The notes beneath the pieces were generated by a model. The model was not told the origin of the DNA and searched no databases. It was given only the letters and a program-made list of their open reading frames with translations. A DNA stretch of 45,473 bases, from positions 22,052 through 67,524 of the forward strand of contig JAWLDT010000005.1 of assembly GCA_041686485.1 (NCBI GenBank), written 5' to 3'. Each line of letters starts with the position of its first letter. The first letter of the stretch is position 1. This stretch comes from Bacteroidales bacterium. GTDB lineage: Bacteria; Bacteroidota; Bacteroidia; Bacteroidales; UBA7960. Below, piece after piece: positions 13,107 to 43,878 of this stretch. Position numbers and translations under genes: made by a program.

Positions 13107-13178
13107 GGCCCGTTCGTCTAGTGGTTAGGACGCCAGGTTTTCATCCTGGTAACAGGGGTTCGATTCCCCTACGGGCTA
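13107..13178 (+). tRNA. tRNA-Glu (TTC), copy 1
   Basis: Cloverleaf: acceptor GGCCCGT/ACGGGCT, anticodon arm CCAGG-TT-TTC-AT-CCTGG, T-loop GGTTCGATTCC; CCA not encoded. Confidence 0.97.
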
Positions 13179-13547: not shown

Positions 13548-13619
13548 GGCCCGTTCGTCTAGTGGTTAGGACGCCAGGTTTTCATCCTGGTAACAGGGGT
13601 TCGATTCCCCTACGGGCTA
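13548..13619 (+). tRNA. tRNA-Glu (TTC), copy 2
   Basis: Identical over 72 nt to 13107-13178. Confidence 0.97.
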
Positions 13620-33328: not shown

Positions 33329-36300
33329 TTACTTTATGCCTTTCAGAAACCTTGCCAGTCTCTGCAGTCTGTAACCTGATTTTACTGAAAGGTCGGTAAC
33401 ATCGAGCAGGAACAGGATTGCCCGGCGCAGATGGCTCCGTAGCCGGCTTTTGTTAATGCGCCCGGGCAATGTTCTAAACCAGTTAATATAGGTTATGGAA
33501 AACAGCCATCTTGTTAGCAGCTCAAACTGTTCTTTGCTGTAATACCAGGTGCCTTCGTATTCATTGATACCGAGAAAGCTGCTTGCAACAGGCATTTGAA
33601 GGAGGTTTTCCAGTTTTTTGTATTTTTGGTCCATGAGTGGGTCTTTGCTGCGCTGCTTTTTCGGACGCCCGCGTGAGGGTGTTTCCTCCCGGAAATCGAA
33701 GACCGCTTCCCCGGTTTTTAACAAGATTTTTACAAGCGAAATGTCACCGGCAATATCATGGTTGCTGCGTCCTGTGTGCTGAAGGGCGCGCCCCAGGGGT
33801 CGATCGAGCCATAAATCGTCAAACTCCTTCATGTTCAGGGCTTTTCTCTTTTGTACTTCCCGGACAGACTTGATCGCAAAATAGGCGATTAACAAGGTTG
33901 TGTTTTCCCTGTAAGTGTTGTTTCCCCCGAGTACCATCAACTCTTCCGGGGCCTGTATGGAGGTGCTGCTCAGTATCGGCCTGATCCATTCTGATGCTAT
34001 CTTCAGGTACGTCATTGCCTCCGGCACAGCAGCAAGATGATCATAGAAGATCTGCCCTGCCTGTTCTTCCTGACCACGGAGGCCAATGTCTCCGAAAGCT
34101 TCCTCCGCAAAGGCAATAAAGTGTTTATACAGCCTTTCCGTGATGGCTGTATCCTGTTCCGGCAGGCTTTCCTTTACATTCGATTCAATAAAGGATTGAA
34201 TGTCAGTTGGGTTTAACAGATATTCAAAAGCTCTGTGTACATCTTTCAGCTTCAGCCCTTTAAGGGCTTCTTCGACACTAGATACGCCACGTTTGCCCAG
34301 TTCATGATACAACTGTGTCAAATCGCCCGTGTGGTCTTCTTTTTGATGAAAACCTAAGAATACCCGGCTTTCAAACCCCATCAGGTTCTGATAAAACCCT
34401 TTGTAATACAGGTCGCTGCCTTTTAACAGATATTCCAGCCCGGAAACATGTTCCGTGACAATATAGTACTTATGTTCGGCGGGGTCGATGCCCATGGCTT
34501 CTCCAAAATGCATGGAATGGAGCTTTTTGTCACGGTTGCCGGCCGGCAGTCGTGGTGCGGCTACACGAATATAGCCGTCGGCCATTTCGTATTTGTTGTT
34601 AAACATCACCAGGGCTTTTTCGTCGCCATGGCAGTTTGTGAAGGCAAACACATGATCGTTAACATGTCCGTGATTCTCAATATAGTCATAGAGCTGAAAG
34701 TGCGCTACATCGCTGAACAGATAACGCTTGCCCACAAGCGGAAAGATTTCTCTTTCGTGACGTTCGACCAGCCCCTGATCCGGTGATTCGTTGTAGTAAG
34801 CGCGCTGGTACTCCATGCCATATTTCTCCGTGAAACCCTCTATCTGGCCATGTGCATACATGGGAAGGCCCGGCAGGGTGTTCATCAACACACAGACGCC
34901 GAAATATTTGTCCCCGGTTCCAAATTGCTGAATGGCGGTTTCTTCATCGGGATTGCTCATGAAGTTCACATACCGTTTAAGGATTTCGGGTTCAAACGCC
35001 AGTGTGTTGGTAATTAATTCTTTATATTTTTTGTTTTCCTCATTTTTCAGCATATGCATAAAGGCGGAATTGTACACCCGATGCATACCCAATGTCCGTA
35101 CAAAGTAGCCTTCCATAAACCAGAATGCTTCGGCCAGCAAGAGCGTTTCCGGCATTTCTGTATTGATACGGTCGACCACTTCGCGCCAGAACTCAACCGG
35201 AAAGAGTTCGTCGAATTGTTCTTTGGTCATGGCATGTTCTGCCCGTGAGGGGATATCCCCGCCACTGCCCGGTCGTGGGTACCACAGCCTGGCAAAATGT
35301 TTTTTGGCCAGGGTCATGGCTGCATCAAAACGGATGATGGAAAACTTACGTGCTACTGACAGGATCTTCTGAATCACAGCTTCCCTTACCTCTGCCTTCA
35401 GCATGTCGAGCTGGGCCGTATCGTTCCAGGGCATCATGGTGCCGTCGTTGCCGTGATAGATATAGCGGACATCGTTATGTTGTTTGTCAACCCGCTGAAA
35501 AACGACCGCTGCATCTGTTTTGTTGTAATAGCCGTCTTCAATACGAATTTCGATGTGGGGATGTTCGGAAAGATTTTCCCCTGTAAAGCTGTACCCGGGA
35601 AAGGGAGGCGCCGGTGTCTGGATAAAATAATCCGGGTGTTCAATGACCCATTTGGAATAAATGCCGGTATGATTGGGCACCATATCGCTGGCCAGTCGAA
35701 TGCCTCTTTGTGCGGCTCTATGGTTCAGGTCGTTATAGGCGTGTTCACCACCCAGTTCCCGGGCGATCTCATAATCGTAGAGTGCATACGCCGATGAGAT
35801 GGCGTCCGGGTTTCCCATGAGGTGTTTAATCTTCTTCGAGGCAACGCTTCTTTCCCATATGCCGATGAGCCATAAGCCATTTAGATTCCATCGTGCCAGC
35901 CTGTCAAGCTCTTCATCCGGGATCTGGTCCAATCGTCGTATGTCACGGTTGTATTTTTTTGAAAGCTGATCAAGCCACACATAGGCATTTTTAGCCACCA
36001 TCACCACCCGGGGCATCCAATGAATATCCGATGTAAATCGCTCTGGTTCATCATAGTCTGCCGAGGCAGCTGCGACGGCATCAAAGCCCGATTTTCCCAG
36101 ATGCATGGCACCTTCTTGTTGTTTTCCATAATCAGGGACCACCGTCGGCGGAGCACCGCCCCCATCACCTTCCAGGCGTAAATCTTCCTTTAGCAAGTCC
36201 TTGCTCTGTAGCAACTGCAAGACCATTTGTGCCGGCAACAGGTCTTTCCAGTTTTGCAGGATGTAGTCAAGCTGACTTTGTAAATCATCAGGGTATACCT

Positions 36301-36949
36301 TATAAGGTGTGCGAAGAAGCGAAAAGATGTCCTTTTGCTCATGACCAAAGGGTGGCTGTTCATAAAAAAAACTTTCCAGCTCATTGATAAAACGTTGAAA
36401 CAAATCATTGTTTGACAGATAGCTCTGGTCAAAGAGTGTTTTCAGCTTTTTATTGGCGGGATTATCATTGGCCAGGTAGAGAATCATGGCCTCTTCTGCG
36501 GTAAACTGAAGATGAGTGCGACCGTTGGTTTCTCCCGAAAGGTATTGCTTTGGGGTTTCTTTTCCGGAATACACACTGGCTGGTGGGAAAGTCCCGGTAA
36601 AATCTTCCATCAGCCTGTTAAAAGGCTCTTCACCAAGTTGTTTTTTCAGAAATGCTGTTGCGTCGGCGAAAACGGCAGGGCGTACCTGTTCCTGATACGA
36701 CTCCAGCAAACCGTGTGCTGTTTCATGCAGCATACCACTGGCAAAAAGCTCTCCCGGGTAAATATGTGCGTCAGGCGCTCTATCCTTGTTTATCGAATAG
36801 GCAAATCTTCGAACAACACCTGCATTGGTGTACAATAAGCTCCCATTCGATGCGAATAGCGCATCCTCCAACTGGTGTTTTTTGCGAAGGTCGCGAAAAA
36901 TGCGCATCTCAAAAAAGAAAGATAAGTTGTTCAGCTTGGCAAAAGGCAT
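33329..36949 (-). CDS. Large GH13 (alpha-amylase family) protein
   Basis: DMVPNH (region I), RFDAA (nucleophile Asp), LAEAFW (acid/base Glu), FMSNPDE (region IV), LPGLPM; no signal peptide. Confidence 0.85.
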   Translation of the reverse strand: MPFAKLNNLSFFFEMRIFRDLRKKHQLEDALFASNGSLLYTNAGVVRRFAYSINKDRAPDAHIYPGELFASGMLHETAHGLLESYQEQVRPAVFADATAFLKKQLGEEPFNRLMEDFTGTFPPASVYSGKETPKQYLSGETNGRTHLQFTAEEAMILYLANDNPANKKLKTLFDQSYLSNNDLFQRFINELESFFYEQPPFGHEQKDIFSLLRTPYKVYPDDLQSQLDYILQNWKDLLPAQMVLQLLQSKDLLKEDLRLEGDGGGAPPTVVPDYGKQQEGAMHLGKSGFDAVAAASADYDEPERFTSDIHWMPRVVMVAKNAYVWLDQLSKKYNRDIRRLDQIPDEELDRLARWNLNGLWLIGIWERSVASKKIKHLMGNPDAISSAYALYDYEIARELGGEHAYNDLNHRAAQRGIRLASDMVPNHTGIYSKWVIEHPDYFIQTPAPPFPGYSFTGENLSEHPHIEIRIEDGYYNKTDAAVVFQRVDKQHNDVRYIYHGNDGTMMPWNDTAQLDMLKAEVREAVIQKILSVARKFSIIRFDAAMTLAKKHFARLWYPRPGSGGDIPSRAEHAMTKEQFDELFPVEFWREVVDRINTEMPETLLLAEAFWFMEGYFVRTLGMHRVYNSAFMHMLKNEENKKYKELITNTLAFEPEILKRYVNFMSNPDEETAIQQFGTGDKYFGVCVLMNTLPGLPMYAHGQIEGFTEKYGMEYQRAYYNESPDQGLVERHEREIFPLVGKRYLFSDVAHFQLYDYIENHGHVNDHVFAFTNCHGDEKALVMFNNKYEMADGYIRVAAPRLPAGNRDKKLHSMHFGEAMGIDPAEHKYYIVTEHVSGLEYLLKGSDLYYKGFYQNLMGFESRVFLGFHQKEDHTGDLTQLYHELGKRGVSSVEEALKGLKLKDVHRAFEYLLNPTDIQSFIESNVKESLPEQDTAITERLYKHFIAFAEEAFGDIGLRGQEEQAGQIFYDHLAAVPEAMTYLKIASEWIRPILSSTSIQAPEELMVLGGNNTYRENTTLLIAYFAIKSVREVQKRKALNMKEFDDLWLDRPLGRALQHTGRSNHDIAGDISLVKILLKTGEAVFDFREETPSRGRPKKQRSKDPLMDQKYKKLENLLQMPVASSFLGINEYEGTWYYSKEQFELLTRWLFSITYINWFRTLPGRINKSRLRSHLRRAILFLLDVTDLSVKSGYRLQRLARFLKGIK

Positions 36950-37514: not shown

Positions 37515-40463
37515 TTATCTATTGCCTGACGCAGGTTGCCAGGGTATGGTAAAAAAGAAAATGCTTCCTTTCCCCGGTTTCGATTCAAACCAGATCTCAC
37601 CACCCAGCAATTCCACGAATGCTTTGGAAATGGATAACCCAAGGCCAACACCCGAAGCATCCCTGGCGGGTTGATCCCTGCCTTGTTTAAAACGCTCAAA
37701 GATCAAATCCTGTTCATGGGTTGGAATGCCCCATCCTGTATCTGCCACGTTAAACAGCAGCATGTTATCTTTTAACCGACACCCGAACTCTACATGGCCT
37801 TCGTCTGTGAACTTAATGGCATTTTCAGCCAGGTTGGTGATGATCTGCGTAAGCTTGGTCGGATCGGTTACGATAGCAGCCTCATCTTTCTTTAGCATCA
37901 GGATGTAACGAAACTTTAGCCCTTTTGCTTCAGCCTGTTGCTCCAACTGATAGTAGACGGAGCTCATCAGCTGTTCCAGGTTAACCTGCTTCTCCTGCTT
38001 TTCTACTGCGCCCGTTTCGATGCTTGACATGTTGATGATGTCTTCAATGATTGACAGGAGCTGATTGCCACTCTGAAAAATGATGCCGGTGATGTGCTTC
38101 ATTTTCTCCCGGTCAACCAGTCCTTCGTGTAACAGCTCTGAAAAGCCCAGGATGGAGTTTAACGGGGTTCTGATTTCGTGAGACAGATTGTTGAGAAAAG
38201 CCGTTTTTAACCGGTCACTCTTTTGTGCCTCTAATTTGGCTTCATTCAGGGCTTCAACATAACGCTGCAGTCCGATGGCACTGCTCACCTGGCTGGCGAC
38301 AAACTCCAGCAATTTAAGGCCTTTCCGGGTATACGCATTCGGGTCGTTATAACTCTGAACCACAATGGCGCCAATGGTTTTTCCTTCAGTAACCAGGGGT
38401 ACGCCCATCCAGATCTCACACAGACTGCCAATCTGCTCAATACTGCCTTCATCAATAAGCTTGTTGATTTCGGACTTTGTTAAAAGTAATGATGTTTGTT
38501 TGTTTATCACATGTCCTGTCATACTGCCTGCCACAGGCCATTCCTCTATATTGTCTTTTTCGTCCTTTTCATAGGGTATGGACAACATACCGGTTTCTTC
38601 TTCATACAAAGCAATATAAAAGTTGCTGGTGTCAATGAGCCTGGATAACTCCTCTTTAATTTTTCTGATAAAGGTTTCCAGGTCCCGGGTAATCAGACTG
38701 GCACTGGCAATGCTATAAATCACCTGCTGGGCCAATTCGTGCTGTTTTTTTTCGGTCAGGTCTCTGACTATAGACAGAAACACCTTTTCACCTTCTATTT
38801 CCATGGGGCTCAGACTTACCTCTGTATAGACAGGTGTGTCATCTTTCGTATTGTGGAGCCATTCAAAAGTACCATATCCTTTGGCTGCTTCGTCTATGTG
38901 ATGATCGGCGGCCGACTTTGAGTCTGTGCCATCGGGTTGTATATCCGGTGAGAGCTCATGCGGCTCCCTGCCGATTATTTCGTTACAGGAACGCTGAAAC
39001 AACCGTTCTGCTTCGCTGTTGCAATCTATAAAACGGCCATTGGCCAAAATCAGGATGGCGTCTGAGGCGTTTTCAAACAAAGCCCTGTATTTTTGCTCAC
39101 TTTGACGTAACACCTCCCGTTGCCGGTATTGTTCGGTCACATCACGAAACACAACCACGGCGCCCACAATTTCATCCCTGGTATTTCTTATGGGTGCCGC
39201 GGAATCAGCGACCTGGTGTTTTTGTCCGTCTTTGTCAACCAGGATCGTGTTATTGCCCATGAAAACAGTTTGCTCTGTTTCAAGAGCCTTTTTGGCCGGA
39301 TCTTCGGCTTCTTCGTCAGAATCCCCGCAGTATATTTTCAGGACTTCCGGCAGGGGTTTTCCCAATACCTCCGATAACTTATAGCCGGTTAGCTTTTCAG
39401 CAACGGGATTCATTCGTTCTATTTTCTCATCCTTGTCCACGGCGATCATGCCATCACCCACAGACTGTAAGGTGATGTATAGATTCTCCCGGCTCTGCTG
39501 AAGTGCTTCTGTAGTTTTTTCCCGTTGTATCCATAACCCAACCAGGTGGGCCACATTCGCAAGCATGTTTTGTTCCTGCTCATCAAAATCAACATCTGTC
39601 GTAGTATAAAATATACTTATATTCCCCGTTGATTTTCCATCAATAATGATATCCGAATAAATAACCGGTTTTCCTGCCGGTACAGACCTGTTCCCGGGGT
39701 ATGACTGGTCATTAAGGATGATCCTGGCTTTAGCAAGCTCCGGAAACCGCATGTTCTGCTCTATCTGTTCGATTACATAAGAAAAGAAATCCCCTGAAGA
39801 CATGTTTGTTTGCATAACCTGACTGATGTTGGTCAGACATTTCATCTCCTTCAGTCGTTCTTTCAGCATCAGTGCTGTTTCGCGTTGCTTTTTGTCTGCT
39901 TCAATGTTGTAAAGGCCAAAAGCCAGATCATTGGCCAGCTCTTTGAAAAGCTCATTTTCTTCTTCAAGCCTGGCATACTCCTGGGGGGCAGAAACGACAA
40001 TTACGCCATACAGGGTTCCCTGATAGGCGATTGCACTGCACAAGCCGGATCTGTTCTGGTAGTTGCCTAAAAGTGGGCAGTCCGGGCAGTCAATAGGTGG
40101 AGTGTCTTTTACCACGAAACGAGTGTCTGCTATGGCTTCCTGCATACATGGCGGGTAATCTCCTGACTGTACTTGCTGCACAAGGGCTTCAGAGCGTTCC
40201 TCCAATCCTGAAGAGGCGAAGGCCGCCAGGTTGTGCTGGTTGTCGAGCAAGGCAATCCACACGTTGTAATACCCGAGTGCATTTTGCAGCGTTTTACAGG
40301 TTTTTTCTATAAGTGCTTTCTGATCCCGCTCATGGGCGATCAACTGATTCACATTGCGGATACCAATCAAAACATTTTTCAGGTGCTGCTCCTTGTTTAA
40401 GGTTTCTCTCACATCCTGATCGCTGGTATTTCCCTGCTTCTGCGTAAAATTGTTATCAGTCAT
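37515..40463 (-). CDS. Soluble multi-sensor histidine kinase (GAF, GAF-like, PAS, PAS, GAF, HisKA, HATPase)
   Basis: H-box LSHEIRTPL, N-box NLAENAIKFT, DTGWGI, GVGLGL; PAS signatures (SVGDGMIAVD...VFRDVTE; ENASDAI...VRDLTE); no TM, no receiver; start set to ATG 40463. Confidence 0.9.
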   Translation of the reverse strand: MTDNNFTQKQGNTSDQDVRETLNKEQHLKNVLIGIRNVNQLIAHERDQKALIEKTCKTLQNALGYYNVWIALLDNQHNLAAFASSGLEERSEALVQQVQSGDYPPCMQEAIADTRFVVKDTPPIDCPDCPLLGNYQNRSGLCSAIAYQGTLYGVIVVSAPQEYARLEEENELFKELANDLAFGLYNIEADKKQRETALMLKERLKEMKCLTNISQVMQTNMSSGDFFSYVIEQIEQNMRFPELAKARIILNDQSYPGNRSVPAGKPVIYSDIIIDGKSTGNISIFYTTTDVDFDEQEQNMLANVAHLVGLWIQREKTTEALQQSRENLYITLQSVGDGMIAVDKDEKIERMNPVAEKLTGYKLSEVLGKPLPEVLKIYCGDSDEEAEDPAKKALETEQTVFMGNNTILVDKDGQKHQVADSAAPIRNTRDEIVGAVVVFRDVTEQYRQREVLRQSEQKYRALFENASDAILILANGRFIDCNSEAERLFQRSCNEIIGREPHELSPDIQPDGTDSKSAADHHIDEAAKGYGTFEWLHNTKDDTPVYTEVSLSPMEIEGEKVFLSIVRDLTEKKQHELAQQVIYSIASASLITRDLETFIRKIKEELSRLIDTSNFYIALYEEETGMLSIPYEKDEKDNIEEWPVAGSMTGHVINKQTSLLLTKSEINKLIDEGSIEQIGSLCEIWMGVPLVTEGKTIGAIVVQSYNDPNAYTRKGLKLLEFVASQVSSAIGLQRYVEALNEAKLEAQKSDRLKTAFLNNLSHEIRTPLNSILGFSELLHEGLVDREKMKHITGIIFQSGNQLLSIIEDIINMSSIETGAVEKQEKQVNLEQLMSSVYYQLEQQAEAKGLKFRYILMLKKDEAAIVTDPTKLTQIITNLAENAIKFTDEGHVEFGCRLKDNMLLFNVADTGWGIPTHEQDLIFERFKQGRDQPARDASGVGLGLSISKAFVELLGGEIWFESKPGKGSIFFFTIPWQPASGNR

Positions 40464-40476
40464 CTGGTAACGTGTA

Positions 40477-41673
40477 TTATGTATCTGTTTTTGTATGATT
40501 GTCTGCAGGCAGAAAGATTGTAAAACGGGACCCTTCATTGATGCTGCTGCTGACCTCTATCCAGCCCCCATGTTCTTCTACGATCTTTTTGCTGATGGCC
40601 AGGCCAAGCCCTGTACTTGACTCCCCGGCTGTCGGCGTCGTGCTGGATTTATGAAAGGGCTGAAATATATTCGGTAACTCTTCTTCTTTGATGCCCGCTC
40701 CCTGATCAATAACGGATGTCACAGCCTTGCCGTTTTCATCCTTTGTGACCCGGATGGTGATGTAACTATTCTTAAAAGAATACTTAATCGCATTGCTGAG
40801 TAAATTATTCAGGACCTGTTCGATCTTGTTCTTATCAAATGCAAAATGCCATGAAGGGATGTCGGTTTCTATCCGGATGTTGATGTTTTTGTACCGGGCC
40901 ACCATCTGATTAAACTCCACTGTTTTTTGAACCAGTGTAATATAGTCATTATTGGTCAGGTTAAGCTCAACATCACCGGCTTCTATTTTGGAGATGTCAA
41001 GCAGTTCTGACATAAGTTTTAGGGCGAAACGCAGTCTTTCTTCAATGGTTTTCAGAAATGTTTTCCTTTGGCTGCCGGAAAAACTGTCTGGGTCGTTATT
41101 CAGGATGTCGGCGTATGAAATGGCAGTTGCAATCGGATTTCGCAGGTCATGCGCCGCCATATTCATAAACTTGTTCTTCTCTTCATTGAGTATACCAAGT
41201 TGTTCATTGGCTTTCTTCAGGTCGTAAAGCGTATGTTCAAGCAGGATCTTGTCTTTTGTGAGTTGCCTTTGCAGGTTGCTCGTTTCCCTGTTCAGGTCTG
41301 ACAACCGTTGATTTTGTTTGATGATGCGTTCCAGGTCAACTTCACCGGTAACCAGCATCTGATCCCCATCTTTGAAAACTTTTGCGTTGATGGTTGTATT
41401 GATACCTGTAACGCTGCCGATGGTCATAAACCCTTCGAATAAGGGCTCTGTCCGGCTATTCCCTCCCTCAGATAACTGTACTAATTTCTCAAATGCCGGA
41501 TTTATAAGGCTATCAGCCGGAGTTGTCTGTGCCAGTTGATGAAAAGCTTTATTCCCAAATAACAGGGAGCGTTCAGGGATCGAAAAAACAGCAATACAAA
41601 GGGCATTACTTGCCAGCGCAGCCGATTCAATAATGTCCAGCCAGGAGGAAACTGTATTTTTTTTGTTATTCAT
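40477..41673 (-). CDS. Soluble histidine kinase with uncharacterised PAS-like N-terminal domain and coiled coil
   Basis: H-box AAHDLRNP, NLLSNAIKYS, DQGAGI, TGLGL; ATG at 41673 overlaps the upstream stop (ATGAATAA). Confidence 0.9.
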   Translation of the reverse strand: MNNKKNTVSSWLDIIESAALASNALCIAVFSIPERSLLFGNKAFHQLAQTTPADSLINPAFEKLVQLSEGGNSRTEPLFEGFMTIGSVTGINTTINAKVFKDGDQMLVTGEVDLERIIKQNQRLSDLNRETSNLQRQLTKDKILLEHTLYDLKKANEQLGILNEEKNKFMNMAAHDLRNPIATAISYADILNNDPDSFSGSQRKTFLKTIEERLRFALKLMSELLDISKIEAGDVELNLTNNDYITLVQKTVEFNQMVARYKNINIRIETDIPSWHFAFDKNKIEQVLNNLLSNAIKYSFKNSYITIRVTKDENGKAVTSVIDQGAGIKEEELPNIFQPFHKSSTTPTAGESSTGLGLAISKKIVEEHGGWIEVSSSINEGSRFTIFLPADNHTKTDT

Positions 41674-42322
41674 CGGTAACTTGGTCAATATGGGAGGCTA
41701 GTTCCTGAAGGTTTGCGATGTAGGTGGTCCGGGGAAATTGTTTTGTGATTTCCTGACCTCCATGCAGGAAAGCCTGTCCCCCGACCAGTACCGGAAGGGT
41801 AAAATGTTGGTGAATTGCTTTCAGCATCTTTTCCATGATGGGCATGTGCGCATGGATGCTTGCTGAGAGGGCAATCATGTCGGGTTGTTTTTCTTTTGTG
41901 AATCGAATGAGGTCATCCACCGGTATGTTGGCTCCCGGGAACCAGGTGTCCCAGCCTTTCATCTCAAACACATCGGCCACCATCTTAATACCAACCTGAT
42001 GCTGTTCTGTTTCCACACAACCCAAAACGACGTTGTAAGGTTTGCGGGTTCGGGATACGATTTTGTAGTAGAGCTCATTCATGATGGCTTCGGTAATGGA
42101 TGTGGCCACATGCTCCTCTGCTACGGTAATCTCATTATTTTCCCAAAGCTCACCAATACGGTACAAGGTTGTTTTTAAGGATTGCTCATAGATATCCATG
42201 ACAGGGATGTTCTTGTTGGTCATGTCGTGGATAACACCTGATGCTGCCTGTCTGTTCCCTTCCAAAAGGTAATGCAGAAGCTCCTGATTGGCGGTGGATG
42301 TAGTTGTTGGTTTTGCTGGCAT
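41666..42322 (-). CDS. Stand-alone cobalamin-binding protein (four-helix cap plus Rossmann domain) with CarH-type signature
   Basis: WENNEITVAEEH = Wx9EH; EQHQVG-x41-SAS-x25-GG; no HTH. Confidence 0.9.
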   Translation of the reverse strand: MPAKPTTTSTANQELLHYLLEGNRQAASGVIHDMTNKNIPVMDIYEQSLKTTLYRIGELWENNEITVAEEHVATSITEAIMNELYYKIVSRTRKPYNVVLGCVETEQHQVGIKMVADVFEMKGWDTWFPGANIPVDDLIRFTKEKQPDMIALSASIHAHMPIMEKMLKAIHQHFTLPVLVGGQAFLHGGQEITKQFPRTTYIANLQELASHIDQVTDE

Positions 42323-42399
42323 AGACTATCCCTCCCAATAATTAGTTAGTGGTATTTTTTATTCCTCACAAGGATACAATCAAGAATAAAGGTACGTAA

Positions 42400-43878
42400 T
42401 TATTTTGTTATTTCCCAACTGGCACCGTCTTTTCCATCTTTAACGGTGATGTTCAGCTTTTGCAGGGAGTCACGTAATTTGTCAGCTGTGTCCCAGTCCT
42501 TGTTTTTGCGCGCCTGTTGCCTGATATCGAGCAGGATGCTCATCAGGCCGTTGATCAGCTCTTGATCATTATCTGATGGTCCGTTCTCCGGCTCACCCAG
42601 GCCAAAAATATCGATTACAAACGTTTTGAAAACCTGTTTCAGGTTGTCGATGCTTTCCTGTGTAAGGGACTCATGGCCATCTTTTACGGCATTGATCGTG
42701 CGTATTGTATCGAACAGGTACGAAAGGGTTACGGGGCTGTTGAAATCGTCATTCAGGGCCGCATAACATTTGTCGGCCAGTGATGCCACATCTGTATCGG
42801 AGGCGTTACCAGCCGGCAGATTATTCAGGGTGTCCATGGCTTGCCACAGCCGTTTCAGGCCTTTTTCTGCTGCTTCCAGTGCTTCATTGCTGAAGTCGAG
42901 GGTGCTGCGGTAGTGTGCCTGAAGGATGAAAAAGCGAATGGTTAGGGGATGAAAGGCTCTTTCCAGCTTCTGGTGATTGCCGTTAAAAAATTCGCGCAGC
43001 GTAATAAAATTGCCCAGCGACTTGCCCATCTTTTGCCCTTCGATGGTGATCATGTTGTTATGCATCCAATACTGTGCGGAATCTTTTCCGAAGGTTGCAT
43101 TTGACTGGGCTATCTCGCATTCGTGGTGGGGAAACAGCAGATCCATCCCGCCACCATGGATGTCGAAAGTTTCACCGAGGTAGCGGGCACTCATGGCGGA
43201 GCATTCCAGGTGCCAGCCCGGGAATCCCTCTCCCCACGGTGAAGGCCAGCGCATGATGTGGGCAGGCGTGGCTTTCTTCCATAAGGCAAAATCAGCCGGA
43301 TGCCGTTTCTCCTCCTGTCCGTCCAGGTCACGCGTAGATGACAACATCTCCTCCACAGACCTGCCGCTTAGCTTCCCGTAGTGAAATTGCTGGTTGTATT
43401 TCTGAACATCAAAATAGACAGAGCCATTTATTTCGTAGGCAAACCCCGCTTCCAGGATGGCCTTCACCATCTCGATCTGTTCAATGATATGACCCGAAGC
43501 CCGTGGTTCAATAGATGGTTTTAGCACATGCATCTTCTCCATGTCCGCATGATAGCGGTCTGAATAATACTGAACTACCTCCATGGGTTCCAGCTGCTCA
43601 ATCCGGGCTTTTTTTGCTATCTTATCCTCTCCTTCATCCGCATCGCTTTCGAGATGCCCTACATCGGTAATGTTGCGCACATAACGAACTTTATACCCCA
43701 GATGCCGGAGGTACCGAAACACCAGATCGAAGGTTACGGCTGGCCGCGCGTGGCCCAGGTGGGCATCCCCATAAACGGTCGGTCCGCAAACGTAGAGTCC
43801 GGTAAAAGGCGGATTAAGAGGCCTGAACGTTTCCTTTTTGCGCGTCAGGGAGTTATATATGTGTAGTTCAGTTGCCAT
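42400..43878 (-). CDS. cysS: Cysteine--tRNA ligase
   Basis: [34 protein letters not shown]. Confidence 0.98.

What the first reader, a model, noticed from the sequence alone, without database searches (positions are those of the whole stretch)
37515..42322. Candidate B12-dependent (photo)sensory phosphorelay: stand-alone CarH-type cobalamin domain coupled to two soluble histidine kinases
Seen: the 218-aa protein has W-x9-EH (WENNEITVAEEH) and E-x-H-x-x-G-x41-S-x-S-x25-GG, with no HTH or other output domain. Its stop overlaps the ATG of a cytoplasmic kinase (ATGAATAA), a second cytoplasmic kinase starts 13 nt after that one ends, and no response regulator or methyltransferase is in the cluster. 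Established: Wx9EH is the upper-ligand motif of the adenosylcobalamin photoreceptor CarH, where light cleaves the Co-C bond and changes oligomeric state. Methyltransferase corrinoid proteins typically have DxHxxG without it. Characterised CarH/LitR and AerR act on transcription factors, not kinases. Inference: this is a split sensor in which AdoCbl photolysis, or B12 availability or redox state, controls kinase activity in trans. I know of no characterised example in Bacteroidota.
Basis: partly seen in the sequence, partly recalled or inferred. Interest (0 to 1): 0.82.

Follow-up and report, generated by a model that had tools for sequence, protein, structure and literature searches.

The report
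B12-binding sensor protein paired with kinase
A small vitamin-B12-binding protein of the light-sensor type sits directly in front of its own dedicated signalling kinase, a pairing kept in hundreds of sediment bacteria but never tested at the bench, and this genome carries a stripped-down version that has lost the usual third, globin-like partner.

Summary
On the minus strand lie a 218-aa stand-alone cobalamin-binding protein (CBD, 41666-42322) with Wx9EH and ExHxxG-x41-SxS-x25-GG, a soluble 398-aa kinase HK1 whose ATG overlaps the CBD stop, and a 982-aa GAF/PAS kinase HK2 13 nt further on. There is no receiver domain on the whole contig.

The CBD-HK1 pairing is not chance. In 76 of 76 related loci with enough sequence, the CBD is followed by an HK1-type kinase. 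That kinase has a family-specific PAS-fold N-terminal domain. In 58 of those loci a ~150-aa protein (X150) lies between them. I show X150 is a divergent photoglobin-like globin, so the ancestral unit is a split photocobilin plus kinase, a class predicted in 2021 and untested.

The window's lineage lost X150, as did at least 5 and perhaps 13 lineages, and it also lost the receiver domain of HK2. All three genes remain under purifying selection.

HK2 is a lineage-specific neighbour, so "phosphorelay" is not supported.

Light as the signal is inferred, not shown. The CarH-type residues are invariant. The genome also has a CarH-like regulator, an adenosyltransferase, a photolyase and a phytoene/squalene synthase.

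Verdict: a real, conserved, untested module and a new variant of a known kind.

The parts
41666..42322 (-). Stand-alone cobalamin-binding protein (CBD), 218 aa
   Evidence: ORF. Pfam B12-binding_2 plus B12-binding. Best solved relatives are the photocobilins 8j2x/8j2w at E 1.3e-21, with CarH 5c8a at 1.9e-7.
42071..42286 (-). Four-helix-bundle cap subdomain (B12-binding_2, residues 13-84)
   Evidence: Pfam PF02607, 1.6e-14.
42110..42145 (-). Wx9EH motif (W60...E70 H71), the CarH-type cap over the upper ligand
   Evidence: Sequence. W 120/120, E 120/120, H 119/120 in homologues. Motif definition from PMC8156234.
41768..42034 (-). Rossmann-type B12-binding subdomain (residues 97-185)
   Evidence: Pfam PF02310, 7.1e-18.
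41990..42007 (-). E106-x-H108-x-x-G111; H108 is the predicted lower axial cobalt ligand
   Evidence: Sequence. E106, H108 and G111 are each 120/120.
41666..41673 (-). 8-nt overlap ATGAATAA of the CBD stop and the HK1 start
   Evidence: Contigs from RNA libraries run across it.
40477..41673 (-). HK1, a 398-aa soluble histidine kinase dedicated to the CBD
   Evidence: HisKA plus HATPase_c. An HK1-type kinase follows the CBD in 76 of 76 loci with room.
41344..41652 (-). HK1 N-terminal family-specific PAS-fold domain (about residues 8-110), followed by a coiled-coil linker
   Evidence: Alignment A4. Sub-threshold PAS Pfam hits in 9 of 52 members. The Atlas model of this protein aligns with PAS domains at TM 0.53-0.60.
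40501..41178 (-). HK1 transmitter core (HisKA 166-233, HATPase_c 280-391)
   Evidence: Pfam.
40464..40476 (-). 13-nt spacer between HK1 and HK2
   Evidence: Contigs from RNA libraries run across it.
37515..40463 (-). HK2, 982 aa, GAF-PAS-PAS-GAF-HisKA-HATPase_c. A lineage-specific neighbour that lacks the C-terminal receiver domain of its L009 orthologue.
   Evidence: Pfam. 46% identity over residues 1-978 to the 1123-aa L009 protein, which has Response_reg at 1001-1110.

Best explanation
The 218-aa protein is a stand-alone cobalamin-binding sensor of the CarH/photocobilin type. It works in trans on HK1, the soluble kinase encoded immediately downstream. Contact most likely goes through HK1's family-specific N-terminal PAS-fold domain.

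The two genes form the conserved core of a module that usually has three parts: CBD, a ~150-aa photoglobin-like protein (X150) and the kinase. In other words, it is a photocobilin split into two genes and coupled to a kinase. The window's lineage has lost X150 and keeps a two-part version.

The most likely signal is light. In the dark, AdoCbl sits with H108 below the cobalt and the W60/E70/H71 cap over the adenosyl group. Near-UV to green light breaks the Co-C bond, and the CBD changes conformation or oligomeric state. That changes HK1 autophosphorylation, and so phosphotransfer to a response regulator encoded elsewhere.

Shown: the anatomy, the motif conservation, the gene pairing, the fusion evidence for CBD with the globin, and purifying selection.

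Inferred: cobalamin binding, light as the signal, physical CBD-HK1 contact, the direction of the effect and the output.

HK2 is probably a co-transcribed, separately sensing kinase of this lineage rather than a second target of the CBD.
For: Pairing.
- 460 of 576 pattern matches in species-representative genomes encode a relative.
- Of the best 80 loci, 58 read CBD-X150-kinase and 18 read CBD-kinase directly. In the other 4 the contig ends after X150.
- In an independent sample of 301 genomes of the order, 23 have the stand-alone CBD and all 23 have the kinase beside it. Seven of these use the order CBD-kinase-X150.
- 16 of 17 genomes with the HK1 N-domain also have the CBD.
- The same-genus genome G289 and the same-family genomes G032 and G173 lack both genes, so the two come and go together.

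CBD type.
- The best solved relatives are the photocobilins, which their paper reports bind AdoCbl and respond to green light (passages of PMC10979010).
- Wx9EH plus ExHx2Gx41SxV/Tx22-27GG are stated to define CarH homologues (passage of PMC8156234).
- These residues are invariant or nearly so in 120 homologues.
- Three of the four SignatureFinder elements are met.

Globin link.
- The X150 profile finds ~370-aa proteins with X150 fused to B12-binding_2 plus B12-binding, in 7 of 7 such proteins scanned.
- X150 against the globin domains of four globin-CBD fusions gives hhalign probability 92.4%, E 5e-7.
- Those domains hit allophycocyanins at 1.8e-7 and the globin domains of 8j2y (3.8e-6) and 8j2w/x (3e-4).

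The core is CBD plus kinase.
- X150 was lost at least 5 times (starred branches), and 13 times on the best tree.
- In the window-versus-L005 pair, dN/dS is 0.15 for the CBD, 0.15 for HK1 and 0.17 for HK2, against 0.08 for cysS.

Genome context for light and AdoCbl.
- A MerR-CBD with Wx9EH lies next to an ECF sigma factor.
- There is a PduO-type adenosyltransferase, a photolyase-family gene and a phytoene/squalene synthase.

Expression hint. Contigs at 99% identity or better, from 4 metatranscriptome runs of 2 studies, cross both gene junctions.
Against:
- The Gly of the GxxH signature element is T105 here. It is G in only 8 of 120 homologues and N in 81.
- The residue after the Trp is E61 in 118 of 120 homologues. 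In CarH that residue is the His that becomes the upper ligand in the light state. A CarH-like bis-His light state is therefore not expected.
- Many carriers are named after anaerobic or sediment groups: Desulfobacterales, Syntrophobacteraceae, Victivallales and digester or sediment Bacteroidales (record titles). Light may be scarce for them.
- One HK1-type kinase, in G167 (72% complete), has neither a CBD nor X150 in the 1.5 kb upstream.
- No response regulator is linked, so the output is unknown.
- The RNA-library contigs cannot exclude carried-over DNA, and no silent control stretch was laid.
Confidence: 0.6

Rival explanations
1. The CBD-kinase pairing is as above, but the signal is not light. 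The CBD reports cobalamin availability or form, or redox/oxygen state through the cobalt ligand state, and tunes HK1 accordingly in dark, often anoxic habitats.
For: - Carriers are mostly named after sediment, digester and anaerobic groups (record titles).
- Runs holding this DNA are labelled sediment, salt lake and lake water.
- Only 1 of 25 module-bearing genomes has a canonical heme oxygenase, so a bilin partner chromophore is doubtful in most.
- X150 lacks the Cys of the photoglobin CXQD motif.
- A stand-alone PpaA/AerR-like B12 protein is reported to respond to intracellular redox state (title and abstract of PMC10734443 in the listing).
- E61 replaces the CarH light-state His.
Against: - The adenosyl-capping W, E and H are invariant. 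A plain B12 or redox sensor would not obviously need them.
- The closest solved relatives are the light-responsive photocobilins.
- The partner X150 belongs to the phycobiliprotein/photoglobin globin lineage.
- This genome already has a cobalamin riboswitch for B12-dependent control, and it has light-related genes.
Confidence: 0.25
2. The CBD is a corrinoid carrier for methyl transfer or another B12 enzyme, and merely shares an operon with kinases.
For: Weak, sub-threshold NCBIfam similarity to methyltransferase corrinoid proteins. For example, pyl_corrinoid scores 45.8 bits against a cut-off of 215. Some source databases name homologues 'methanogenic corrinoid protein MtbC1'.
Against: - No methyltransferase lies in the cluster or on the contig neighbourhood.
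- The genome's true methyltransferase-linked corrinoid protein has DxHxxG without Wx9EH, and sits beside MTTB and MTHFR.
- The neighbour kept in 76 of 76 loci is a kinase, never a methyltransferase.
Confidence: 0.03
3. The CBD controls both kinases, or HK1 and HK2 form a mixed signalling unit: the reader's two-kinase relay.
For: - The three genes are packed tightly, with an 8-nt overlap and a 13-nt gap.
- Contigs from RNA libraries cross both junctions.
- Elsewhere, 26 of 51 close same-strand neighbours of the module are two-component proteins, and 15 of these carry receiver domains.
- The L009 orthologue of HK2 has a receiver domain that HK1 could phosphorylate.
Against: - A clear HK2 orthologue is adjacent only in L005, L007 and L009.
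- In the window HK2 has no receiver domain, and there is no Hpt.
- HK2 has four sensor domains of its own.
Confidence: 0.12

Closest known systems
Photocobilins (SasPcob, AbDPcob; PDB 8J2W/8J2X/8J2Y; PMC10979010) and the photoglobin/B12 operons predicted in PMC8717448
   Same: - They are the closest solved CBD relatives, at E 1.3e-21.
- The CBD works together with a phycobiliprotein-like globin.
- Stand-alone forms are proposed to act on partner enzymes through protein-protein contact (passage).
- Stand-alone photoglobins are reported to lie next to B12-binding genes and two-component genes (passages).
   Different: - In relatives the CBD and globin are separate genes. In the window the globin is absent from the locus and was not found in the 92.8%-complete genome.
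- X150 lacks the photoglobin Cys motif.
- The output is a dedicated PAS-fold histidine kinase, not a diguanylate cyclase.
- None of it has been tested.
- 'Bacteroid' does not occur in the main text of any of the three papers searched. Their supplements could not be read.
CarH / LitR AdoCbl photoreceptor repressors (PDB 5C8A, 5C8D)
   Same: Both have the four-helix cap plus Rossmann CBD, with Wx9EH and ExHxxG...S...GG. The same genome also holds a canonical MerR-CBD of this type.
   Different: - There is no MerR DNA-binding domain.
- The His next to the Trp, which is the light-state upper ligand in CarH, is Glu here.
- The partner is a kinase, not DNA.
AerR / PpaA stand-alone B12-binding co-regulators of CrtJ/PpsR
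   Same: Both are stand-alone cobalamin-binding proteins that act in trans on a separate signalling protein (abstracts in the listing).
   Different: The target is a transcription factor in phototrophic Proteobacteria. Sequence similarity is distant: AerR 7te2 appears only at E 0.0074, and against a related fusion protein.
H-NOX / HnoK-type pairs (a stand-alone cofactor-bearing sensor encoded with a histidine kinase)
   Same: The logic is the same. A small soluble cofactor-binding sensor, encoded beside a soluble kinase, regulates its autophosphorylation in trans (abstract of PMC4436077 in the listing).
   Different: The fold, the cofactor (heme) and the signal (NO) are unrelated. This is an analogy of mechanism only.

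Membership tests
CarH-type (photoreceptor-type) cobalamin-binding domain | [quoted passage not shown] | tested here: met
   W60-x9-E70-H71. Present in 119-120 of 120 homologues. Definition from PMC8156234.
CarH-type (photoreceptor-type) cobalamin-binding domain | ExHx2G-x41-SxV/T-x22-27-GG | tested here: met
   E106xH108xxG111, then x41, S153-A-S155, x25, G181G182. The third position of the S-x-V/T element is S (107 of 120) or T (8 of 120).
CarH-type (photoreceptor-type) cobalamin-binding domain | Binds AdoCbl and responds to light | not testable with these tools
   Needs reconstitution and spectroscopy.
CarH / LitR transcription factor | N-terminal MerR-type DNA-binding domain | tested here: not met
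   No HTH in the 218-aa protein. The genome's true MerR-CBD is a different gene on contig C38.
SignatureFinder light-responsive CBD signature (PMC11796333) | GxxW, EH, GxxH and GxxxP all present | tested here: inconclusive
   G57xxW60, E70H71 and G130xxxP134 are met. GxxH is not met: T105 here, G in 8 of 120 and N in 81 of 120.
Photocobilin | CBD joined to, or partnered with, a bilin-binding globin-like domain | tested here: not met
   There is no globin in the window locus. The X150 profile finds nothing in the six-frame translation of the genome at E up to 10. The genome is 92.8% complete. 62 of the best 80 related loci do have X150.
Methyltransferase corrinoid protein (MtbC/MtgC type) | DxHxxG without Wx9EH, encoded with a cognate methyltransferase | tested here: not met
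   The protein has ExHxxG with Wx9EH and no methyltransferase neighbour. NCBIfam scores are far below the cut-offs.
HisKA-type sensor histidine kinase (HK1, HK2) | HisKA phospho-acceptor domain plus HATPase_c | tested here: met
   Both domains are above the Pfam cut-offs in both proteins. The H-box His and the N/G boxes are visible in the translations.
Phosphorelay (His-Asp-His-Asp) | Receiver and Hpt domains in the cluster | tested here: not met
   There is no Response_reg in the window or on contig C5. No Hpt hit was found.

The most novel reading that the evidence does not exclude
The CBD alone, with no bilin-globin partner, is a self-sufficient trans-acting AdoCbl photoswitch for a dedicated PAS-fold kinase. 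That would make this the minimal natural cobalamin-gated two-component system, and the first histidine kinase shown to be controlled by vitamin B12 photochemistry. Repeated globin loss would mean the globin only tunes colour or sensitivity. Replacement of Tyr157 in seven globin-less lineages would mark the CBD-globin contact surface.
Probability: 0.4. Interest if true: 0.75.

Novelty: new variant of a known kind. Interest (0 to 1): 0.6.

Why it matters
B12-based photoreception is established for transcription factors (CarH, AerR) and, in vitro, for a diguanylate cyclase.

In four full-text searches of the held library I found no report of a histidine kinase controlled by a cobalamin-binding protein. 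The 2021 survey states that none of the photoglobin/B12 loci had been studied.

This work defines a compact, very consistently organised module, with three named strains among its carriers:
- Lutibacter oricola DSM 24956 (L057)
- Oligosphaera ethanolica DSM 24202 (L020)
- Balneolaceae bacterium ANBcel3 (L011)

It also supplies a natural two-protein minimal form. That makes the question 'can B12 photochemistry gate a two-component kinase in trans?' directly testable.

If confirmed, it would offer a green-light, small-protein switch for kinases. It would also explain how non-phototrophic sediment Bacteroidota sense light, or B12/redox state.

Tried and rejected
- **Structure prediction.** No model or fold search was made.
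- **Earlier findings.** These were closed.
- **Promoter and terminator scan.** No signal over shuffles: 17 promoter-like sites against 12.7 +/- 3.6, and 9 terminator-like sites against 9.4 +/- 3.4. It is a sigma-70 model, which may not suit this phylum (recalled).
- **Rfam.** Only two tRNAs in the window, and no riboswitch near the locus.
- **Direct naming of X150.** This failed in Pfam, NCBIfam and the PDB by single sequence. Profiles gave only non-significant hits: 8j2w globin E 0.59 and smURFP E 0.54. It was resolved only through the fusion proteins.
- **HK1 N-domain profile against the PDB.** Only coiled-coil and de novo TIM-barrel noise.
- **Fused CBD forms.** The search for longer forms found 5 distant GGDEF/EAL proteins and no kinase fusion. 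This is weak evidence, as the tool itself warns.
- **Tyr157 versus globin loss.** The independent-pairs test has too few pairs: 5 on starred branches, median p = 1.
- **Heme-oxygenase protein of G249.** Its C-terminal half against the photoglobin profile gave probability 3.4%, so it is not supported as a globin.
- **RNA-library cover.** Gaps in contig cover are not interpretable. DNA carry-over is not excluded and no silent control was laid.


Full report
**1. The observation**

Three co-directional minus-strand genes sit downstream of cysS (42400-43878).
- The first encodes a 218-aa protein (41666-42322) with Pfam B12-binding_2 (13-84) and B12-binding (97-185) and nothing else.
- Its TAA (41668-41666) overlaps the ATG (41673-41671) of a 398-aa kinase, HK1, within ATGAATAA.
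- HK1's TAA (40479-40477) is followed after 13 nt by the ATG of a 982-aa kinase, HK2.
- No receiver or methyltransferase domain occurs in the 33 window ORFs scanned.
- None of the genome's 22 Response_reg matches is on the window's contig.
- Hydropathy gives no convincing membrane segment.

The window also encodes GldD and a Por_Secre_tail protein, and its nearest relative is titled Bacteroidales. A Bacteroidota origin is therefore reasonable.

**2. The motifs are not chance**

- Wx9EH occurs 15 times in 1.28 million residues of this genome's six-frame segments, or 0.0026 per 218 aa.
- In 120 homologues, W60, E70, E106, H108 and G111 are 120/120 and H71 is 119/120.
- The genome offers its own control among its four CBD proteins:
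  - MetH has DxHxxG and no Wx9EH.
  - A 211-aa corrinoid protein flanked by an MTTB methyltransferase and MTHFR also has DxHxxG and no Wx9EH.
  - A 292-aa MerR-CBD next to an ECF sigma factor has Wx9EH and ExHxxG, like the protein in question.
- A review states that both motifs together define CarH homologues (passage of PMC8156234).
- By sequence, the closest solved structures are the photocobilins 8j2x/8j2w (1.3e-21) and 8j2y. CarH is at 1.9e-7 and MetH and methyltransferase corrinoid proteins are weaker.

**3. The pairing with HK1**

The CBD family is large.
- 372 clusters reach E 1e-5 or better in the near-length search, and all 120 listed are 195-256 aa.
- 460 of 576 pattern matches in species-representative genomes were confirmed.
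- Record titles span Bacteroidales, Prolixibacteraceae, Marinilabiliales, Paludibacter, Flavobacteriaceae, Balneolales, Ignavibacteriae, Desulfobacterota groups, Lentisphaerota and a spirochaete.

I classified the best 80 loci with profiles for the CBD, HK1's N-domain, the kinase core and the intervening protein.

| Arrangement | Loci |
|---|---|
| CBD-X150-kinase | 58 |
| CBD-kinase directly | 18 |
| CBD-X150, then contig end | 4 |

- Every locus with room (76 of 76) has the kinase.
- In two of the 58 (L059, L070) the X150 match is only a short stretch.
- The kinase matches HK1 over its full length, including the N-terminal ~110 residues.

An independent, evenly drawn sample of 301 genomes of the same order gave consistent results.
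- The HK1 N-domain occurs in 17 genomes.
- The stand-alone CBD occurs in 23.
- 16 of the 17 genomes with the HK1 N-domain also have the CBD.
- The seven CBD genomes without a strong N-domain hit have the order CBD-kinase-X150, with a more divergent N-domain.
- The one exception is G167 (72% complete). Its kinase has neither a CBD nor X150 in the 1.5 kb upstream.
- Nine further genomes have 354-383-aa CBD proteins. The four examined are each followed by a ~400-aa kinase.
- The same-genus and same-family genomes lack both genes, so this is a patchy accessory module.

**4. HK1's sensor domain**

- Residues ~8-110 have no Pfam match above threshold.
- They are conserved across the family: W11, P59, and the consensus blocks GFLTIG, NTSI and LLIxGG of alignment A4.
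- They give sub-threshold PAS hits in 9 of 52 members.
- In the Atlas's own model of this very protein they align with named PAS domains at TM 0.53-0.60.
- A long coiled coil links this domain to HisKA.
- I take this PAS-fold domain as the likely docking site for the CBD. That is an inference.

**5. The third gene, X150**

- X150 (~150 aa, helical) has invariant M62, M63, N66, H67, N69, H70, W92, Y97 and W107, and no Cys.
- It has no Pfam, NCBIfam or direct PDB match.
- A profile search of 1.84 billion representatives found 558 relatives.
- All seven ~366-398-aa hits scanned have X150 fused to the N-terminus of B12-binding_2 plus B12-binding. This is a fusion that ties X150 to the CBD.
- The N-terminal domains of four globin-CBD fusions from the same order hit allophycocyanins (1.8e-7), smURFP, and the globin domains of photocobilins 8j2y (3.8e-6) and 8j2w/x (3e-4).
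- X150 aligns to those domains with hhalign probability 92.4%, E 5e-7, over 97 columns.
- X150 is therefore a divergent photoglobin-like globin. The usual module is a photocobilin split into two genes, plus a kinase.

This matches the computational prediction that stand-alone photoglobins lie next to B12-binding genes within two-component operons, none of them studied (PMC8717448, section 3.4). It also matches the in-vitro finding that a stand-alone photocobilin can act on a separate enzyme domain (PMC10979010, passages).

Unlike photoglobins, which have a CXQD motif (PMC10151467, passage), X150 has no Cys. A canonical heme oxygenase was found in only 1 of 25 module-bearing genomes. Bilin binding by X150 is therefore open.

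**6. What is special in the window**

- X150 is missing from the locus. Neither a single X150 sequence nor the X150 profile on the six-frame genome at E up to 10 finds it elsewhere. The genome is 92.8% complete.
- No heme oxygenase was found either.
- On a CBD tree, the window and L005 (91% identical) form a 100%-supported pair. That pair is sister to L006-L009, which all have X150.
- Across the tree the globin-less state needs 13 changes, at least 5 of them forced by well-supported branches.
- HK2's orthologue in L009 is 46% identical over residues 1-978 and carries an extra C-terminal receiver domain. The window and L005 lack it.
- Between the window and L005, dN/dS is 0.15 (CBD), 0.15 (HK1) and 0.17 (HK2), against 0.08 for cysS. 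The reduced system is maintained, not decaying.
- CBD residue 157 is Tyr in 60 of 61 globin-bearing loci, with Phe in the other. It is Tyr in only 7 of 19 globin-less ones. It is replaced in seven separate lineages and is His in the window.
- This suggests a CBD-globin contact, but the phylogenetically controlled test has no power.

**7. HK2 and the 'phosphorelay'**

- A clear HK2 orthologue follows HK1 only in L005, L007 and L009. A long second kinase sits in the same place in L008 and L013.
- Elsewhere the neighbours differ. Still, 26 of the 51 same-strand genes within 200 nt of the module are two-component proteins, and 15 of those have receiver domains.
- The module thus tends to sit in multi-kinase neighbourhoods.
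- In the window no receiver or Hpt domain is present, so a phosphorelay in the strict sense is not supported. HK1's response regulator must be encoded elsewhere.

**8. Signal**

For light:
- The adenosyl-capping residues are invariant.
- The closest relatives are shown to be photoactive.
- The partner is a phycobiliprotein-like globin.
- This genome has a CarH-like MerR-CBD beside an ECF sigma factor, a PduO-type adenosyltransferase, a photolyase-family gene and a phytoene/squalene synthase.

Against light, or for a dark B12/redox role:
- The Gly of GxxH is not conserved.
- The CarH light-state His is Glu here.
- The hosts are largely sediment and anaerobic groups.
- A PpaA/AerR-like protein is reported to respond to redox state (listing).

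I put light at about 0.6 and B12/redox at about 0.25.

**9. Expression hint**

- Twenty runs from 7 studies hold the stretch, or a part of it, and 8 of them are RNA libraries.
- Contigs at 99% identity or better, from four metatranscriptome runs of two studies, cross the CBD/HK1 junction: 41393-42405, 41407-42492 and 41636-42311.
- They also cross the HK1/HK2 junction: 40125-40995, 40099-40858 and 40261-40619.
- This is compatible with co-transcription.
- Contigs cannot prove a single transcript, DNA carry-over is not excluded, and no silent control was laid.

**10. Limits**

- Structure prediction, fold search on my own models and complex prediction could not be run.
- Supplements of the three key papers were closed. 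They may already list this family.
- Nothing here shows cobalamin binding, light response or CBD-HK1 contact.

**Verdict**

This is a real and strongly conserved sensor-kinase pair, and a reduced variant of a computationally predicted but untested class.

It is not supported for HK2 or for a relay.

Noticed in passing
L004:1102-1977 (-) = G000 contig C38; ECF sigma at L004:203-733 (-): The same genome has a canonical CarH/LitR-like protein: a MerR HTH plus a CBD with Wx9EH (WQIGTINPAHEH) and ExHxxG. It lies next to an ECF sigma factor gene, an arrangement I recall for LitR-LitS.
   Followed up: partly
L002 and L001 = G000 contig C8, about 36.8-43.3 kb: A 211-aa corrinoid protein (DxHxxG, no Wx9EH) lies between an MTTB-family methyltransferase and MTHFR, close to a 1236-aa MetH. 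This looks like a methyl-transfer cluster and served as an internal control.
   Followed up: partly
Related loci, e.g. L009:6617-7066 (+), L057:6617-7075 (+): X150 is a ~150-aa Cys-less photoglobin-like protein family with no Pfam or NCBIfam model and 558 relatives in the representative library. It occurs stand-alone between the CBD and the kinase, after the kinase, or fused N-terminally to a CBD.
   Followed up: yes
window 41852-41854 (codon of CBD residue H157): Residue 157 is Tyr in 60 of 61 globin-bearing loci but is replaced in seven separate globin-less lineages (H, S, A or N). It may be a CBD-globin contact residue. The phylogenetic test lacks power.
   Followed up: partly
L114:2022-3323 (+) = G249 contig C35: In one globin-less relative, a 434-aa protein directly precedes CBD-kinase. 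It has an N-terminal heme oxygenase domain and an unassigned 230-aa C-terminal half. A three-PAS kinase lies upstream of that. This was the only canonical heme oxygenase found among the 25 module-bearing genomes searched.
   Followed up: partly
window 37515-37620 versus L009:8298-11666: HK2 ends just after its ATPase domain, whereas the L009 orthologue continues into a receiver domain. The window/L005 lineage has lost both X150 and this receiver.
   Followed up: yes
L070:6608-6808 and L059, just after the CBD: Only short X150-like stretches remain between the CBD and the kinase, although L043, a near relative of L070, has a full 171-aa X150. These may be globin losses in progress.
   Followed up: no
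window 13107-13178 and 13548-13619 (+): Two tRNA matches with identical scores (65.5 bits) lie 441 nt apart, apparently a duplicated tRNA gene. The first overlaps my over-long ORF call for ribosomal protein S20.
   Followed up: no
window 33329-36949 (-); L012:1775-5437, L013:2323-5913: A 1206-aa protein with a weak alpha-amylase match lies downstream of HK2. ORFs of similar length (1221 and 1197 aa, no Pfam hit at 1e-8) lie directly upstream of the CBD in L012 and L013. I did not compare them.
   Followed up: no
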